DNA of 64,000 nt from Candidatus Bathyarchaeota archaeon RBG_16_48_13. Its GTDB lineage: Archaea > Thermoproteota > Bathyarchaeia > RBG-16-48-13. Below are positions 35,120 to 51,545 of this stretch, in pieces. Within the stretch, counting starts at the first letter, position 1. Each line of letters starts with the position of its first letter. The DNA lies in the NCBI GenBank assembly GCA_001775995.1, contig MEZH01000007.1:110971-174970 (forward strand), written 5' to 3'. Below the pieces are notes generated by a model. It did no database searches. It saw nothing but the letters and a program-made list of their open reading frames with translations, and was not told where the DNA came from. Position numbers and translations under genes: made by a program.

Positions 35120-35767
35120 ATGGAGATCATGAAAGAAGTACACCTTATGAAGAAAGGTGCGGAAGCGGATATCTATTTGGGGGTGTGGTTCGGTAGAGAG
35201 TCCGTGGCCAAGTGCAGGGTCAAGAAGAAATACAGAGTTCCTAAATTGGATTTGGCTCTCAGAACCTCCAGGACTGTTCAAGAAGCTCAACTAATCCACG
35301 AGGCAAAGAAAGCGGGAGTTCCAACCCCCACCTTGTTTTTCATCGATCAGCCAGGAGCAACATTAATCATGGAATTTGTAAAAGGAGAAAAAATCAAAGA
35401 TATGATCGAAAGAATGCGATATGAGACAGCACGTGAGGTCTTCCTGAAAGTGGGCAAAGACATAGCGATGCTTCATAGAGCAGGGATAATTCATGGTGAC
35501 CTAACGACCTCAAATATGATACTGACAAGAGGAGAACAGGTAGTGTTCATAGATTTTGGCTTGGGAAGCCGTTCTGAGAAGGTCGAGGATAAGGGAGTGG
35601 ACCTACATTTGCTCAAGAGAGCACTTCAAAGTACGCACCACAAAAGGGCTGACGACTGTTTCCAAAGCGTTTTGGAAGGGTACCGACATATGGCAAGCGA
35701 TACATCTTCGGAAGTTATTGAAAGAGCATATGAAATAGAAAGGAGAGGTCGTTACGCAATCCGCTAA
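35120..35767 (+). CDS. bud32: KEOPS kinase Bud32
   Basis: KGAEA, IIHGDLTTSN, IDFGL, VDLHLLKR, RRGRY. Confidence 0.95.
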   Translation: MEIMKEVHLMKKGAEADIYLGVWFGRESVAKCRVKKKYRVPKLDLALRTSRTVQEAQLIHEAKKAGVPTPTLFFIDQPGATLIMEFVKGEKIKDMIERMRYETAREVFLKVGKDIAMLHRAGIIHGDLTTSNMILTRGEQVVFIDFGLGSRSEKVEDKGVDLHLLKRALQSTHHKRADDCFQSVLEGYRHMASDTSSEVIERAYEIERRGRYAIR

Positions 35768-36323
35768 GACCGTATACTTCGCTACTACGAATGTGAATAA
35801 GTTTCACGAGGCAAAGTCTGCCCTTTCAGAAATGAAGATTAGGGTTCTAATGTTGAAGAAGAGAAAGATCGAAATTCAAGCTGACAAGATAGAAGAAGTG
35901 GTCAAAAGAAGCGCTCTTTGGATTACTGAAAAAGATGCTCGCCCCATCATCGTTGAGGACGCGGGGTTCTTCATACGAGCAATGGATGGTTTCCCAGGTC
36001 CCTACTCTTCCTATGTCTACAGGAAGATTGGTCTGGTTGGAATTTTGAAGTTACTTGATCATTCCACCAATCGAGTGGCGGAATTCCGTTCCGCGGTTGC
36101 CTTCTGCAACCATGGCGATCTCATCAGGATATTCACGAGCTGTATCGGTGGAACAGTAGCCTATGAGAAGAGAGGGACCGAAGGCTTCGGTTTTGATCCC
36201 ATATTTATTCCACACGGTGAGAACAGGACATTTGCCGAGATGACCATTGAGGAAAAGAATCGCAGATCACACAGAGCCAAGGCCCTCGAGGAATTCGCGA
36301 AGTGGTATCTGAGAAATTACTGA
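35754..36323 (+). CDS. rdgB: Non-canonical purine NTP pyrophosphatase (RdgB/HAM1); start proposed at ACG 35754
   Basis: VEDAG, FPGPYS, GFGFDPIF, SHRAKAL. The N-terminal motif VYFATTNVNK begins upstream of the first GTG (35793); the start position is inferred. Confidence 0.9.
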   Translation, partial: TQSAKTVYFATTNVNKFHEAKSALSEMKIRVLMLKKRKIEIQADKIEEVVKRSALWITEKDARPIIVEDAGFFIRAMDGFPGPYSSYVYRKIGLVGILKLLDHSTNRVAEFRSAVAFCNHGDLIRIFTSCIGGTVAYEKRGTEGFGFDPIFIPHGENRTFAEMTIEEKNRRSHRAKALEEFAKWYLRNY

Positions 36324-48778: not shown

Positions 48779-50524
48779 TCAGTTGTGGGAAAAGAAGGCA
48801 TCAATTTCATGGTCTTTCTTGTCTATTCTGACGAAACCGAATCTAATGAATTGAATTACCGTTCCTACATCTAGCTTGGTGCACTGTAATTCGGCCAAAC
48901 CTTCTTTCGTGGTGCCGTCAGGCATTAATACACGAGCAGGAAATGTATCTTCTAATTGTAACCATTGAAGTAGCGGTGCGCTCAGACCCTTGGCATCTCG
49001 GTGATCAGTACTGTGGTAAACACATTGAACACCTCTTTCACCAGACTTCATTACTCTCAGATTACAGAGGTCGATTAGCCTAACGTATTTTGATTCTTCC
49101 AGAAGCTTCAGATCTTCCCTAGAAACCAGCAGAGTAACGCTCTTGTCAGGTTCCGGGGTTATGCTGAATCTCTTGAACCCGCGAGCTGAAAAGTCTGGAT
49201 GTCTGGGAATTTCATTTTCGATTTTCCCGGGCATATTGATGATGGTCAGATTCACAGGGTCGCTTACGAAGATATACCTATCTGATAACGGATCGACTAG
49301 TTTCTTGTTTAAAGCATATAAATTGTCCAAAGGAACAGTTACCTCGGATAGACTCAAGCCGAATTCCAGAACGAATTCCCTCAATGCTTCAGGTCTTATA
49401 CCTCTTCTCCTGAGTGATTGCATACTCCAAGTCTGTGGATCATCCCATCCAGAGTAGATTTTGTTCTCGATCATCCGTCTAGCCTTGGTCTTGCTAAGTT
49501 TGGCCCCAGATATCTGAAGAAGACCATGGTGAATTATCTCAGGCTTACTCCATCCGAAAAGGTTCCACAAGAAAATTTCCATCATGTCCTCGATGACTAG
49601 ATCCTTACCTCTCAGGATATGGGTTATTCCCAAGAGATGATCATCTATGGCCCAAGAGAATTCTAACATTGGCCATACTATATACCGGTCACCGACTCGT
49701 GGATGGACGCGTCGAGATACTCTCAGAAGTACTCTGTCCCTGAATGCAGGATTAGGATGTTTCATGTCTGTCTTTAACCTGACCACTGCTTCTCCTTCAT
49801 CGTAAAATCCGCCGAGCATCTTGTCCCATCCGTCAAGATTAGTCTCCCTGCTCGAATTTCGACAAGAGCATTCATCCCCTAGTCCTCGATTTCGGCGAAG
49901 CGTCTCAGCTTCACACAGGCAAACATATGCAAGATTTCTTTCGAGAAGTATTCTGGCCCATTCATAGAAGAAGGAGATGCGGTCAGATTTGTACACTATC
50001 TTGTCTACATTGACACCCAACCAGTCCAAGCCATCTTTTATCAGATCATAAGCTTCTGGAACAATATTCTTCTCAACAGAGCCTATAGTGTCATCATAAG
50101 CCAGTATGAGTTCTCCTCTGTAGCGCTTCACATATTCGTCGTTCAAGATCGCCATCCGCGCATTTCCTATGTGAAGCGGACCGGATGGATATGGAGCGAG
50201 CCTCATAACAATCTTGGAATACATATCAGCATTTGGCAACGCAGGGAGTGTCTTGACCTCCTTCTCTTTCTTCTTTTGTTCCAAGAGCTTGGGCGCGAGT
50301 CTTGATAATTCTTTCAATCGATCTTCTTGTGACATGTTATTTACGGTGACAACCGTTTCCTCAGCGATCTTCTTCATTTCTTCCGCCGGGATGGCGCCTC
50401 CAGTTTCAGCCATTAAACGTCCATGGACAGCTTCAGCTCTGGCTTTGCCCCCAAACTTTGCAGCGTTGGCTAAGGCGTATATGTAAGCATTTTTTCGTAT
50501 TGTATCTAGGTCACTGATGCTCGT
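48779..50524 (-). CDS. gltX: Glutamate--tRNA ligase; start proposed at ACG 50524
   Basis: RLAPYPSGPLHIG (HIGH), RGKDL, LSKT (KMSKS-like). In-frame upstream segment IRKNAYIYALANAAKFGGKA resembles the archaeal GluRS N-terminus; the start position is inferred. Confidence 0.93.
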   Translation of the reverse strand, partial: TSISDLDTIRKNAYIYALANAAKFGGKARAEAVHGRLMAETGGAIPAEEMKKIAEETVVTVNNMSQEDRLKELSRLAPKLLEQKKKEKEVKTLPALPNADMYSKIVMRLAPYPSGPLHIGNARMAILNDEYVKRYRGELILAYDDTIGSVEKNIVPEAYDLIKDGLDWLGVNVDKIVYKSDRISFFYEWARILLERNLAYVCLCEAETLRRNRGLGDECSCRNSSRETNLDGWDKMLGGFYDEGEAVVRLKTDMKHPNPAFRDRVLLRVSRRVHPRVGDRYIVWPMLEFSWAIDDHLLGITHILRGKDLVIEDMMEIFLWNLFGWSKPEIIHHGLLQISGAKLSKTKARRMIENKIYSGWDDPQTWSMQSLRRRGIRPEALREFVLEFGLSLSEVTVPLDNLYALNKKLVDPLSDRYIFVSDPVNLTIINMPGKIENEIPRHPDFSARGFKRFSITPEPDKSVTLLVSREDLKLLEESKYVRLIDLCNLRVMKSGERGVQCVYHSTDHRDAKGLSAPLLQWLQLEDTFPARVLMPDGTTKEGLAELQCTKLDVGTVIQFIRFGFVRIDKKDHEIDAFFSHN

Positions 50525-50530
50525 TCGACG

Positions 50531-50535
50531 TCACC
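50531..50535 (-). promoter_or_regulatory. SD sequence GGTGA 6 nt before the proposed ACG start of gltX
   Basis: Minus strand reads AAAAGGTGA-CGTCGA-ACG-AGC. Confidence 0.6.
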
Positions 50536-50552: not shown

Positions 50553-51545
50553 CTATTTTCCACGATCTAGGAAGAAATCCACTAGTGCTTCGAGCAATTC
50601 TCTTTCATCGTGGTTCTCGAATATGGAGAGACTCTCTTTTGCTATGAATCCGTATCCAACAGCTACATGTCGGGCATAGTCAATCGAACCAATGGATCTG
50701 AAGAGATCGATAGCTGTACGGATCTCGTCCTGAGTTGAGTTTCTGTTCTTTAGTAAGCACATGATCGCTTTTCTTTGGTTCTCGTCGCTGTTGGCCAAGG
50801 CATGTGTTACTATCAGGGTCTTCTTTCCTTCCCTTAGGTCACTTCCGACTGGCTTCCCTAATGACTTGCCTTCAGCTGTTATGCCCAAGATGTCGTCTAT
50901 GATTTGAAAAGCTATCCCTGCATTGAAGCCATATGATCCCAGGTGTTCCACCTCTGCGTCAGTGCCTTTCCCAGCTATTGCACCTGCCTGAGCTGCCGCT
51001 TTGAAGAGAGCTGCGGTTTTCCCTCCTACCATTTCTATGTATTCTTTCTCGGTCACCCCAATCTTGTCTTCGTACATCATATCCAGAGTCTGTCCTTCGC
51101 ACACCATGACGGCGGCCTCGGTTAGTTTCTTCAAGATCTCGATTAGATCTGCTTTTTCAATTCCACTCGCTAGAGCAACCTCAAAGACCTTAGCGAACAA
51201 AAGATCTCCCGCTGTTATCGCAACGGGTTCTCCAAAACTGACGTGGACTGTTGGGATACCTCTTCGTCGATCATCCTTGTCCATGATGTCGTCGTGGATC
51301 AGCGTGAAATTATGAAACAATTCCACGGCTGCGGCTATTCTGAGCGCGTTGTCCTCTTGTCCCCCCACAACCCTGCAAGATTCAAAAACAAGGAGAGGCC
51401 GAAGCCGCTTTCCTCCAGCTCTTAGGAGGTGACTGGCTGCATCATATAGTGTTCTCGGTTCTCTTTCAGTTCCAAGAGTGGCAAGAATCACTGGGTCGAT
51501 TTTCCTTGAGAGACGCTCAATTTCTGAAACGACATTCTTGCTCAA
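50553..51545 (-). CDS. Geranylgeranyl diphosphate synthase (polyprenyl synthetase)
   Basis: GGKRLRP, LIHDDIMD..RRG, FQIIDD, GKKT. Confidence 0.95.
   Translation of the reverse strand: MSKNVVSEIERLSRKIDPVILATLGTEREPRTLYDAASHLLRAGGKRLRPLLVFESCRVVGGQEDNALRIAAAVELFHNFTLIHDDIMDKDDRRRGIPTVHVSFGEPVAITAGDLLFAKVFEVALASGIEKADLIEILKKLTEAAVMVCEGQTLDMMYEDKIGVTEKEYIEMVGGKTAALFKAAAQAGAIAGKGTDAEVEHLGSYGFNAGIAFQIIDDILGITAEGKSLGKPVGSDLREGKKTLIVTHALANSDENQRKAIMCLLKNRNSTQDEIRTAIDLFRSIGSIDYARHVAVGYGFIAKESLSIFENHDERELLEALVDFFLDRGK

What the first reader, a model, noticed from the sequence alone, without database searches (positions are those of the whole stretch)
50414..50535. Essential gltX also lacks a canonical start: SD-spaced ACG, suggesting systematic ACG initiation or C-to-U start-codon editing
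Seen: 37 in-frame codons upstream of ATG 50413 encode (T)SISDLDTIRKNAYIYALANAAKFGGKARAEAVHGRL, resembling the conserved archaeal GluRS N-terminus. There is no ATG/GTG/TTG before the in-frame TGA, and GGTGA lies 6 nt before ACG 50524. Both ACG sites in the window have CGT just upstream (CGTCGA-ACG, CGTT-ACG). Many ribosomal/translation genes here start with TTG or GTG (S17e, S4, S11, S24e, S6e, S13, rpoN). Inference: unusually permissive initiation, or mRNA editing as in plant organelles, which I do not know from archaeal mRNA. Two cases cannot establish a system.
Basis: partly seen in the sequence, partly recalled or inferred. Interest (0 to 1): 0.75.

Follow-up and report, generated by a model that had tools for sequence, protein, structure and literature searches.

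The report
ACG start codons in an archaeon
An uncultured archaeon's essential glutamyl-tRNA synthetase gene, and at least four other core genes, have ACG behind a ribosome-binding site exactly where relatives have the ATG start; the ACG is kept across related species, so this lineage very probably starts some proteins at ACG, which standard gene finders do not allow.

Summary
On the minus strand, gltX reads TGA (inside GGTGA), CGT CGA, then ACG at 50524. Thirty-six conserved GluRS codons follow before the first ATG/GTG/TTG, at 50413.

The ACG is not a base-call error. Four other assemblies carry the same GGTGA-CGTCGA-ACG, one of them from a relative only 87% identical. A third species-level relative has ATG at exactly that codon. 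Codons 2-37 evolve under the same purifying selection as the rest of the gene.

Four more genes show SD-spaced ACG at the homologues' N-terminus: pheT, uS12, thrC and rdgB. The pheT ACG is conserved in an 85%-identical relative. CTG and ATC/ATT starts also occur (rtcA, UPF0201, PEBP, yfcE, hflX, dph5).

The best reading is direct near-cognate initiation by Met-tRNAi, positioned by the SD, in a lineage with relaxed start selection. C-to-U editing is not supported: no shared cis motif, no deaminase found, and no edit-type deviation at 281 conserved columns other than the pheT start codon. It remains unexcluded without RNA data.

aIF1 was not found, but the MAG is only 75% complete.

This scan has noted ACG/ATH starts before, in Asgard genomes. 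This genome looks TACK/Bathyarchaeia-like.

The parts
48779..50524 (-). gltX (archaeal glutamate--tRNA ligase). 581 codons counted from the ACG, plus the stop codon.
   Evidence: NCBIfam PRK04156 E=3.7e-186, residues 8-581 aligned to profile 4-567. An 89%-identical relative, P0001, is 581 aa and starts MSISDLD at the same codon.
50522..50524 (-). ACG, the proposed initiation codon of gltX.
   Evidence: It aligns column for column with the ATG of relative L028. It is identical in L031, L032, L034 and L033.
50531..50535 (-). Shine-Dalgarno GGTGA. Its TGA (50533-50531) is also the in-frame stop that closes the gltX frame upstream.
   Evidence: GGAGGTGAT-type 5-mers are 3.5-4.7-fold enriched upstream of starts. 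The aligned spacing of 6 nt is the modal class for ATG genes. The SD is conserved in all six aligned contigs.
50414..50521 (-). 36 codons of conserved GluRS N-terminus (SISDLDTIRKNAYIYALANAAKFGGKARAEAVHGRL) lying upstream of the first canonical start.
   Evidence: Homology to relatives. pN/pS is 0.15-0.36 between species-level lineages, against 0.17-0.18 for the rest of the gene, with no indels and no stops.
50411..50413 (-). First canonical in-frame start (ATG, Met38). This is the start that ATG/GTG/TTG-only gene callers use, giving 544 aa.
   Evidence: Cluster members P0125, P0126 and P0128 were called at 544 aa.
50516..50518 (-). ATC (codon 3), the alternative near-cognate start. It is the first start codon allowed by NCBI table 11.
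   Evidence: the ORF listing with table-11 starts gives 579 aa from this ATC. The NCBI record of the sister MAG has a 579-aa protein (P0124). The aligned SD spacing of 12 nt is rare, seen in 2 ATG genes against 25 at spacing 6.
50498..50500 (-). ATA (codon 9), which matches the start of the 573-aa NCBI-sourced protein on this contig.
   Evidence: P0123 is 573 aa and lies on the 323,270-bp contig. This ATA is 30 nt from the SD.
50553..51545 (-). Upstream polyprenyl synthase gene. Its TAG stop (50555-50553) lies 28 nt before the ACG, and no promoter-like element was seen in the spacer by reading, so gltX is probably an operon-internal cistron.
   Evidence: (Pfam polyprenyl_synt on the orthologous gene).
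35754..36323 (+). rdgB/HAM1 (XTP/dITP diphosphatase). This is the second ACG-start gene in the window, with its ACG at 35754-35756.
   Evidence: PRK14821 profile positions 2-182 align from 5 residues after the ACG, and the first canonical start (GTG) lies 13 codons downstream, inside the conserved VYFATTN motif.
35741..35749 (+). SD-like AGGAGAGGT upstream of the rdgB ACG, inside the 3' end of the upstream gene.
   Evidence: the ACG lies 14 nt before the end of the upstream gene.

Best explanation
gltX is translated from the ACG at 50524 by ordinary near-cognate initiation.

Proposed mechanism:
- The gene is an internal cistron of an fni-idsA-gltX transcript.
- The 30S subunit is placed by pairing of GGTGA with the 16S 3' end, which puts the ACG in the P site at the optimal 6-nt spacing.
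- Met-tRNAi (anticodon CAU, a normal archaeal initiator) pairs with ACG despite a central C:A mismatch. The protein therefore begins Met-Ser-Ile-Ser...

This is a habit of the lineage and not a single accident. At least five core genes use an SD-spaced ACG (gltX, pheT, rpsL/uS12, thrC, rdgB). Others use CTG or ATC/ATT. Together these make up roughly 1-2% of the genes assessed.

What is shown and what is inferred:
- Shown: the DNA is real, the ACG is conserved across species, the N-terminus is under coding constraint, the SD geometry fits, and the pattern recurs in other genes.
- Inferred: the ACG itself is decoded without editing, by Met-tRNAi. The lineage tolerates this because start-codon proofreading is relaxed. 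Loss of aIF1 may be the cause, but that rests only on not finding the gene in an incomplete genome.
For: 1. The DNA is real and the ACG is old.
- GGTGA-CGTCGA-ACG is identical in the window and in four other contigs: L031 (a second NCBI MAG with 5 mismatches in 16.9 kb), L032 (JGI), L034 (ENA), and L033 (JGI, only 87% nt identity, pS 0.37).
- L028 (89.6% identity) has ATG at exactly that codon behind the same SD.
- The 67%-identical P0004 also starts with M at that codon.

2. The N-terminus is translated. pN/pS for codons 2-37 is 0.15-0.36, against 0.17-0.18 for the rest of the gene, with no indels or stops. Profile and relatives cover this region.

3. The SD geometry fits ACG. Its aligned spacing is 6 nt, the modal class for ATG genes (25 genes). 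ATC sits at spacing 12 (2 genes).

4. The pattern recurs genome-wide.
- Among in-frame codons between the upstream stop and the first canonical start, ACG is the codon most often preceded by an SD 5-mer: 6/71 against 124/5639 for all others, OR 4.1, p=0.005.
- The sister codons ACA, ACC and ACT give 7/236.
- NCBIfam profiles place the family N-terminus at the ACG for pheT (profile 2 at the next residue), uS12 (profile 3 at the next residue), thrC (profile 3 at the ACG) and rdgB.
- 93% of 57 PheT homologues have Met in the column of the ACG.

5. The pheT ACG, with GAGGTGA-GCAT, is conserved in two assemblies of an 85%-identical relative. The 94%, 88% and 85% relatives were all called 18 residues short.

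6. Other near-cognate starts are needed: CTG for rtcA, UPF0201 and PEBP, and ATC/ATT for yfcE, hflX and dph5.

7. The initiator tRNA is normal, with A1-U72, three G-C pairs in the anticodon stem and anticodon CAU. tRNA-Thr(CGU) is an ordinary elongator.

8. aIF1/SUI1 was not found with two HMMs or by tblastn, and it is not beside TFB, where 4 of 6 relatives carry it. aIF1A and aIF2 alpha and beta were detected by family search. An aIF2-gamma-like gene lies on the 99.97%-identical sister contig that aligns to this region.
Against: - There is no RNA, ribosome-profiling or N-terminal peptide evidence.
- ATC at codon 3 is conserved in all six contigs and cannot be excluded as the real start. pheT has an ATT at codon 4 counted from the ACG, and thrC has an ATA directly before its ACG.
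- The genome-wide SD enrichment is modest and rests on six sites. Two of these, an rpoL-containing ORF and a nitroreductase, are not backed by homology.
- From my own knowledge, ACG is a very poor initiator in E. coli.
- The aIF1 absence rests on a 75%-complete MAG. Two high-quality relatives also lack a SUI1 match and still have canonical gltX starts.
Confidence: 0.68

Rival explanations
On this view the ACG is only a decayed former start codon.
For: - Table 11 permits ATC and ATA but not ACG.
- The NCBI-sourced proteins P0124 (579 aa) and P0123 (573 aa) match these two starts.
- ATC is conserved in all six contigs.
- ATH starts seem to be needed for yfcE and hflX in this genome.
Against: - The two NCBI-sourced lengths disagree for identical DNA, which suggests the starts were chosen among the allowed codons and not from evidence.
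- SD spacing to ATC is 12 nt (2 ATG genes, against 25 at 6 nt), and to ATA it is 30 nt.
- uS12 has no ATH codon between its SD and its conserved N-terminus, and rdgB has none between the upstream stop and its conserved N-terminus. An SD-spaced ACG is the common denominator of all five genes.
- A relative has ATG exactly at the ACG codon.
Confidence: 0.15
2. C-to-U mRNA editing converts ACG to AUG (and perhaps CUG to UUG) before translation, as in plant organelles.
For: - ACG and CTG, the two commonest non-canonical starts here, would both become canonical after a C-to-U change.
- ACG/ATG interchange between close relatives is the pattern seen at plant organelle start-codon editing sites (PMC12548569).
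Against: - The ACG sites share no sequence motif beyond the SD.
- No dCMP/cytidine-deaminase-fold (PF00383) or DYW deaminase was found in the assembly. The DYW control search matched in none of the 14 control genomes, so that negative carries little weight.
- At 163 GluRS and 118 PheT columns conserved at 90% or more, none of the 14 deviations is C-to-U-correctable except the pheT start codon itself. An editing system confined to start codons would have no precedent.
- yfcE has only ATC, AAG or ATA available.
- To my knowledge and in the searches run, mRNA editing has not been reported in archaea.
Confidence: 0.06
3. The ACG marks damage and not function. Either it is an assembly or base-call error for ATG, or it is a real start-codon loss, with GluRS now made as an N-terminally truncated protein from Met 50413 or the gene decaying.
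For: - ATG/GTG/TTG-only gene callers report 544-aa or 564-aa proteins.
- The genome is a 75%-complete MAG and contains at least one frameshifted gene.
Against: - Five independent assemblies from NCBI, JGI and ENA carry the ACG, including an 87%-identical species.
- Codons 2-37 are as constrained as the rest of the gene.
- GluRS is a single-copy essential enzyme here: one genome-wide match with no internal stops.
- The same pattern occurs in pheT, uS12, thrC and rdgB.
Confidence: 0.04
4. Recoding from another frame. Examples are initiation at the GTG inside GGTGA (a 7-codon +1-frame ORF, GTG ACG TCG AAC GAG CAT CAG TGA) followed by a frameshift, or stop read-through and frameshift from the upstream idsA gene.
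For: The GTG at 50534 and the idsA frame are both +1 relative to gltX, and the short ORF overlaps the gltX start.
Against: - In L033 the idsA stop is TGA instead of TAG, and the spacer is 2 nt shorter. The frame relation to idsA is therefore not conserved, yet the ACG geometry is.
- I saw no slippery motif by reading, and the GTG has no SD of its own.
- The relative with ATG starts in the gltX frame at the ACG position.
Confidence: 0.02

Closest known systems
Near-cognate ACG/CUG initiation in eukaryotes and their viruses (AAV VP2, Sendai virus C', yeast ALA1 tandem ACG; eIF1-controlled stringency). The examples are from my own knowledge; the role of eIF1/aIF1 is described in PMC6237735 and PMC4705826.
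   Same: - Met-tRNAi reads ACG despite a middle-position mismatch.
- The ranking of the starts validated here (ACG and CTG commonest, ATH fewer, AAG/AGG none) resembles the eukaryotic hierarchy CUG and ACG > AUH >> AAG/AGG, which I cite from my own knowledge.
- The machinery (aIF1A, aIF2, initiator tRNA) is of the eukaryote-like type.
   Different: - Here the codon is positioned by a Shine-Dalgarno duplex in polycistronic mRNAs, not by scanning with Kozak context.
- It is the only start of essential housekeeping genes, not an alternative isoform start.
Conserved non-canonical starts of essential bacterial genes: Deinococcus dnaA (ATC) and rpsL (CTG), and infC ATT/ATA (PMC2830850).
   Same: - Core genes, including ribosomal protein S12, keep a non-ATG/GTG/TTG start across related species.
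- Gene callers mis-annotate these genes.
   Different: - Those cases use CTG or ATH, all allowed by NCBI table 11, and the Deinococcus ones have peptide proof.
- ACG is not in table 11, and no prokaryotic ACG main start turned up in the literature searches.
ACG-to-AUG start-codon creation by C-to-U RNA editing in plant organelles (PMC12548569).
   Same: - The genomic ACG sits at the start position of conserved genes.
- ATG and ACG interchange among relatives.
   Different: - No PPR/DYW or other deaminase was found.
- There are no internal edit-type deviations at conserved residues.
- There is no shared cis element beyond the SD.
Near-cognate start codons noted earlier by this scan in Asgard archaea (e1-5592645, e1-5612372, e1-5562791 and others). 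These are AI notes, not publications.
   Same: - SD-positioned ACG/ATH starts on ordinary genes.
- They are conserved between species, affect about 1-7% of genes, and cause gene callers to truncate the proteins.
   Different: - This genome looks TACK/Bathyarchaeia-like by its best named hits.
- ACG and CTG dominate here, whereas ATT/ATA dominate in the Asgard notes.
- In those genomes aIF1 is present and itself starts at a weak codon. Here aIF1 was not found at all.
Near-cognate putative initiation sites in Haloferax volcanii harringtonine ribosome profiling (PMC7261190).
   Same: It is experimental evidence that archaeal ribosomes may initiate at near-cognate codons: about 30% of the putative alternative sites.
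   Different: Those were alternative or internal sites that the authors set aside as possible false positives. None was the main start of an essential gene, and ACG is not named in the main text.

Membership tests
Archaeal glutamate--tRNA ligase (NCBIfam PRK04156 / TIGR00463) | Full-length match above the curated cut-off, including the N-terminal segment | tested here: met
   620 bits against a cut-off of 516. Residues 8-581 align to profile 4-567.
SD-directed near-cognate (non-AUG/GUG/UUG) initiation | No canonical start is available upstream of a conserved, constrained N-terminus | tested here: met
SD-directed near-cognate (non-AUG/GUG/UUG) initiation | A near-cognate codon sits at the SD spacing used by canonical starts and at the homologues' Met position | tested here: met
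   The spacing of 6 nt is the modal class. A relative has ATG at the same codon. For pheT, 93% of homologues have Met in the column of the ACG.
SD-directed near-cognate (non-AUG/GUG/UUG) initiation | The codon is real and evolutionarily retained, not an error | tested here: met
   Five assemblies and two species-level lineages for gltX. Two assemblies of an 85%-identical relative for pheT.
SD-directed near-cognate (non-AUG/GUG/UUG) initiation | The protein N-terminus or the initiating ribosome is mapped to that codon | not testable with these tools
C-to-U start-codon RNA editing (plant-organelle type) | A cytidine deaminase or editing factor is encoded | tested here: not met
   PF00383 and PF14432 gave no match in the 75%-complete assembly. 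The DYW control matched in none of the 14 control genomes, so that half is weak.
C-to-U start-codon RNA editing (plant-organelle type) | Edit-type (C-to-U-correctable) deviations occur at conserved internal codons | tested here: not met
   0 of 13 internal deviations at 281 conserved columns of GluRS and PheT.
C-to-U start-codon RNA editing (plant-organelle type) | The RNA differs from the DNA at the site | not testable with these tools
Relaxed start-codon stringency through loss of aIF1 (archaeal counterpart of eukaryotic Sui- phenotypes) | aIF1/SUI1 is truly absent from the genome | tested here: inconclusive
   - No match with PF01253, NF002096 or tblastn using six relatives' proteins.
- The gene is not beside TFB, where 4 of 6 relatives have it.
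- The MAG is only 75% complete, and 6 of 30 relatives also gave no match.

The most novel reading that the evidence does not exclude
This archaeal lineage has lost the start-codon proofreading factor aIF1. It would then be a natural relaxed-stringency ('Sui-like') organism, in which SD-positioned ACG, CUG and AUH codons initiate well enough to serve essential genes over evolutionary time. If true, aIF1 is dispensable in nature, and the start-codon repertoire of archaea depends on the lineage and on the initiation-factor set.
Probability: 0.2. Interest if true: 0.8.

Novelty: new variant of a known kind. Interest (0 to 1): 0.62.

Why it matters
- Annotation. ACG is not an allowed start in NCBI table 11 or in common gene finders. 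In this lineage GluRS, PheRS-beta, ribosomal protein uS12, threonine synthase and RdgB are therefore truncated or given arbitrary starts. The database holds GluRS versions of 544, 564, 573 and 579 aa for this species group. The 573-aa and 579-aa versions come from DNA that is identical over the aligned start region. uS12 is recorded as 131 aa, 14 residues short.
- Biology. A conserved ACG start on essential genes would show that archaeal initiation can work at a codon with a central mismatch when a strong SD positions it. It also gives a natural system for asking what sets start-codon stringency (aIF1, aIF2, SD strength).
- Breadth. Together with this scan's earlier Asgard notes, it suggests near-cognate initiation is wider among uncultured archaea than the AUG/GUG/UUG textbook set (PMC7531240).

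Tried and rejected
Independent assemblies were used instead.
- The metagenome-contig scan returned only a C-terminal fragment and an unrelated hit. The exact look-up of the 544-aa product found nothing. Several relatives' contigs had no retrievable DNA.
- Searching the sister MAG for aIF1 through the locus handle was not possible.
- Screening by coding potential of the stop-to-first-start gap. Among the 30 top-scoring genes not already examined, the 16 with a family match included 13 where the canonical start is adequate and one frameshift-split gene. Only the PEBP gene, and doubtfully HycI, need a non-canonical start. This screen is a poor predictor. It also shows that non-canonical starts are a small minority.
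- SD-linked near-cognate candidates rejected by profile alignment, because a canonical start suffices: RecJ, an ArgE/DapE deacylase, RpoE and a Rad50-like ORF (the last judged by eye). GdhA stays ambiguous.
- The 'CGT upstream' motif is not shared by the other ACG sites.
- A dedicated ACG-reading initiator tRNA is ruled out for the assembled part. tRNA-Thr(CGU) is an ordinary elongator, and the only initiator-like tRNA has anticodon CAU.
- Fusion or frameshift from idsA, or from the GTG inside the SD, is rejected because the spacer length and the stop codon differ in L033.
- Coupling to the upstream stop. 6 of 11 non-canonical starts lie within -20 to +31 nt of the upstream gene end, against 28% genome-wide. 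This is suggestive and not significant.
- The uS12 search found no 85-95% relatives, so it adds nothing on conservation of that ACG.
Full report
**1. The observation**

Read on the minus strand, the region is ...GAAAA TAG TTGCTGGCACTTCAAAAGGTGA CGT CGA ACG AGC ATC AGT GAC CTA GAT ACA ATA CGA ... CGT TTA ATG GCT.
- The gltX frame is closed by the TGA at 50533-50531, which lies inside GGTGA.
- The ACG is at 50524-50522 and the first ATG/GTG/TTG is the ATG at 50413.
- The translated product from the ACG (581 aa) matches the archaeal GluRS equivalog PRK04156 at 620 bits. Profile position 4 aligns to residue 8.
- All 19 GTDB relatives fetched have the same N-terminal motif behind an ATG, TTG or GTG.

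**2. The ACG is real and old**

The window is C7:110971-174970 of an 848-kb, 16-contig MAG that is 75% complete and has no same-family relative among species representatives. The large protein collection holds much closer relatives.

DNA could be fetched for five of their contigs.

| Contig | Source | gltX nt identity to window | Codon at the ACG position |
|---|---|---|---|
| L031 | second NCBI MAG (5 mismatches in 16.9 kb) | 99.9% | ACG |
| L032 | JGI | 98.7% | ACG |
| L034 | ENA | 98.7% | ACG |
| L033 | JGI | 87.2% | ACG |
| L028 | ENA | 89.6% | ATG |

- All four ACG contigs read GGTGA-CGTCGA-ACG. L028 reads GGTGA-CGCTGA-ATG, with its ATG in the same alignment column, and its protein begins MSISDLD.
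- A 67%-identical homologue of the same length (581 aa) also begins with Met there.
- The ACG is therefore a start codon that changed by one transition. It has either persisted through species-level divergence (pS 0.37 between the window and L033) or arisen twice.
- Codons 2-37 have pN/pS of 0.15-0.36, like the rest of the gene (0.17-0.18), with no indel or stop. They are still translated.

This removes sequencing error and truncation at Met38 as serious explanations.

**3. Which codon starts the protein**

- The genome uses a GGAGGTGAT-type SD.
- For ATG genes, the aligned spacing between the SD and the start peaks at 4-7 nt. Spacing 6 has 25 genes and spacing 12 has 2.
- The ACG sits at spacing 6, the ATC (codon 3) at 12, and the ATA (codon 9) at 30.
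- NCBI table 11 allows ATC and ATA but not ACG.
- The NCBI-sourced proteins for this contig and the sister MAG are 573 aa (matching an ATA start) and 579 aa (matching an ATC start), although the two DNAs are identical over the aligned start region. This suggests the starts were chosen among allowed codons and not from evidence.

**4. Is it systematic?**

I built a dicodon coding model and selected 801 ORFs. I then tallied every in-frame codon between the upstream stop and the first canonical start.
- ACG is the codon most often preceded by an SD 5-mer at spacing 3-8: 6/86 overall.
- After dropping the three codons next to the canonical start, the figure is 6/71 against 124/5639 for all other codons (OR 4.1, p=0.005).
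- ACA, ACC and ACT together give 7/236.

The six SD-linked sites are gltX, pheT, thrC, uS12, an rpoL-containing ORF and a nitroreductase.

NCBIfam profiles place the family N-terminus at the ACG in four further genes:
- pheT: profile position 2 at the residue after the ACG.
- uS12: profile position 3 at the residue after the ACG.
- thrC: profile position 3 at the ACG.
- rdgB: the profile starts five residues after the ACG.

In each of these, the first canonical start would delete 13-18 conserved residues. The rpoL and nitroreductase cases are not supported by homology.

Further support comes from pheT.
- In a 57-sequence PheT alignment, the column of the ACG is Met in 93% of sequences.
- The 94%, 88% and 85% relatives were all called 18 residues short.
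- DNA of the 85% relative, from two assemblies, keeps GAGGTGA-GCAT-ACG. One of those assemblies comes from the same sample as the ATG-bearing L028.

Other near-cognate starts are needed for rtcA (CTG at the profile N-terminus), UPF0201 (CTG), a PEBP/YbhB protein (CTG), yfcE (ATC or AAG), hflX (ATC) and dph5 (ATT or CTG). By contrast, of the 30 further top gap-score genes, 16 had a family match. Of these, 13 are satisfied by a canonical start and one is a frameshift-split gene. Non-canonical starts therefore make up about 1-2% of genes, and ACG is the commonest of them.

**5. Mechanism**

- The initiator tRNA (C1:107898-107989) has A1-U72, three G-C pairs at the base of the anticodon stem and anticodon CAU. 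tRNA-Thr(CGU) is an ordinary elongator. No special decoder is visible.
- Editing finds no support. The ACG sites share nothing but the SD. No CDA-fold or DYW deaminase was found (the DYW control matched in none of the 14 control genomes). Among 281 columns conserved at 90% or more in GluRS and PheT, the 14 deviations of this genome include no Pro/Leu, Ser/Phe, Thr/Ile, Arg/Cys or His/Tyr type change. The only C-to-U-correctable one is the pheT ACG itself.
- Fusion or frameshift models fail because L033 has a different idsA stop codon and a spacer 2 nt shorter, while the SD-ACG geometry is kept.
- The remaining and simplest model is direct near-cognate initiation on an SD-positioned ACG. The starts validated here (ACG and CTG, then ATH, with no AAG or AGG) rank as they do in eukaryotic-type initiation, according to my own knowledge of that hierarchy.

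A possible cause is loss of proofreading.
- aIF1 destabilises archaeal initiation complexes on non-AUG codons (PMC6237735, discussion citing S. solfataricus work).
- SUI1 was not found here with PF01253, NF002096 or tblastn. It is also not next to TFB, where four of six relatives carry it.
- aIF1A and aIF2 alpha and beta were detected by family search. An aIF2-gamma-like gene lies on the 99.97%-identical sister contig that aligns to this region.
- With 75% completeness, and 6 of 30 relatives also lacking a match, this is only a lead.

**6. What is known**

- Reviews state that archaea use AUG, GUG and UUG (PMC7531240).
- Haloferax ribosome profiling saw near-cognate putative sites but set them aside (PMC7261190).
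- Deinococcus has proteomically proven ATC (dnaA) and CTG (rpsL) starts that are conserved in the group (PMC2830850).
- ACG starts are known from eukaryotes and viruses, and, through editing, from plant organelles (PMC12548569).
- My searches found no report of ACG as the main start of prokaryotic genes.
- This scan has noted SD-positioned ACG/ATH starts before, on other DNA from Asgard archaea. The best named hits of this genome's uS12 and PheT are Bathyarchaeia, Hecatellales and Methanomethylicia, so this looks like a different, TACK-type lineage with a different mix of codons (ACG and CTG).

**7. Verdict**

The editing half is unsupported but not excluded without RNA data.
- The finding is a new variant of a known kind, namely near-cognate initiation.
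- It has immediate annotation consequences and a testable link to aIF1.

Noticed in passing
G000 C1:12561-13959 (outside the window): An amidohydrolase (chlorohydrolase/deaminase family) is split into two overlapping ORFs in different frames. The second ORF aligns only to profile positions 95-430, so this is a frameshift: a pseudogene, an assembly indel or recoding.
   Followed up: partly
window 48779-50524; proteins P0123, P0124, P0125-P0128: Public records give GluRS of this species group four different lengths (544, 564, 573 and 579 aa). The 573-aa and 579-aa versions come from DNA that is identical over the aligned start region. None uses the ACG.
   Followed up: yes
G000 C7:207978-208412 (33 kb beyond the window end): uS12 is on record as a 131-aa protein (P0192), 14 residues short. 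Its ACG lies about 30 nt downstream of a TTATATAAA TATA-like box, so this mRNA may have a very short leader or none, unlike the operon-internal gltX and pheT cases.
   Followed up: partly
G000 C4:59000-62300: aIF1/SUI1 was not found anywhere in the assembly. The TFB neighbourhood, where four of six relatives carry SUI1, is contiguous here and holds an FtsJ-like methyltransferase, a winged-helix gene, TFB and SRP19 (my reading of the ORF translations), with no SUI1 remnant.
   Followed up: partly
L004 (G020:C155) compared with L002/L003 (G022, G007): In another family of the same order, one genome has an Ile codon (…ERRIISLDDD) where two sister genomes have the gltX ATG (…ERRTMSLDDD). A TTG lies two codons downstream. 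This may be another start-codon turnover.
   Followed up: no
whole genome G000: Most of the 27 predicted tRNA genes carry introns, including both tRNA-Met(CAU) genes. TTG is very common as the first available start (255 of 796 genes).
   Followed up: partly
window 50511-50534, minus strand: A 7-codon ORF (GTG ACG TCG AAC GAG CAT CAG TGA) starts at the GTG inside the SD and overlaps the gltX start in the +1 frame. It is conserved only because the surrounding sequence is, and there is no evidence that it is used.
   Followed up: partly
G000 C7:236438-237745 (hflX) and C1:70333-71034 (yfcE): Both genes have conserved N-termini with no canonical start and no ACG or CTG available. ATC (or AAG) is the only near-cognate option. 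Both starts lie 3 to about 30 nt downstream of the upstream gene's stop.
   Followed up: partly
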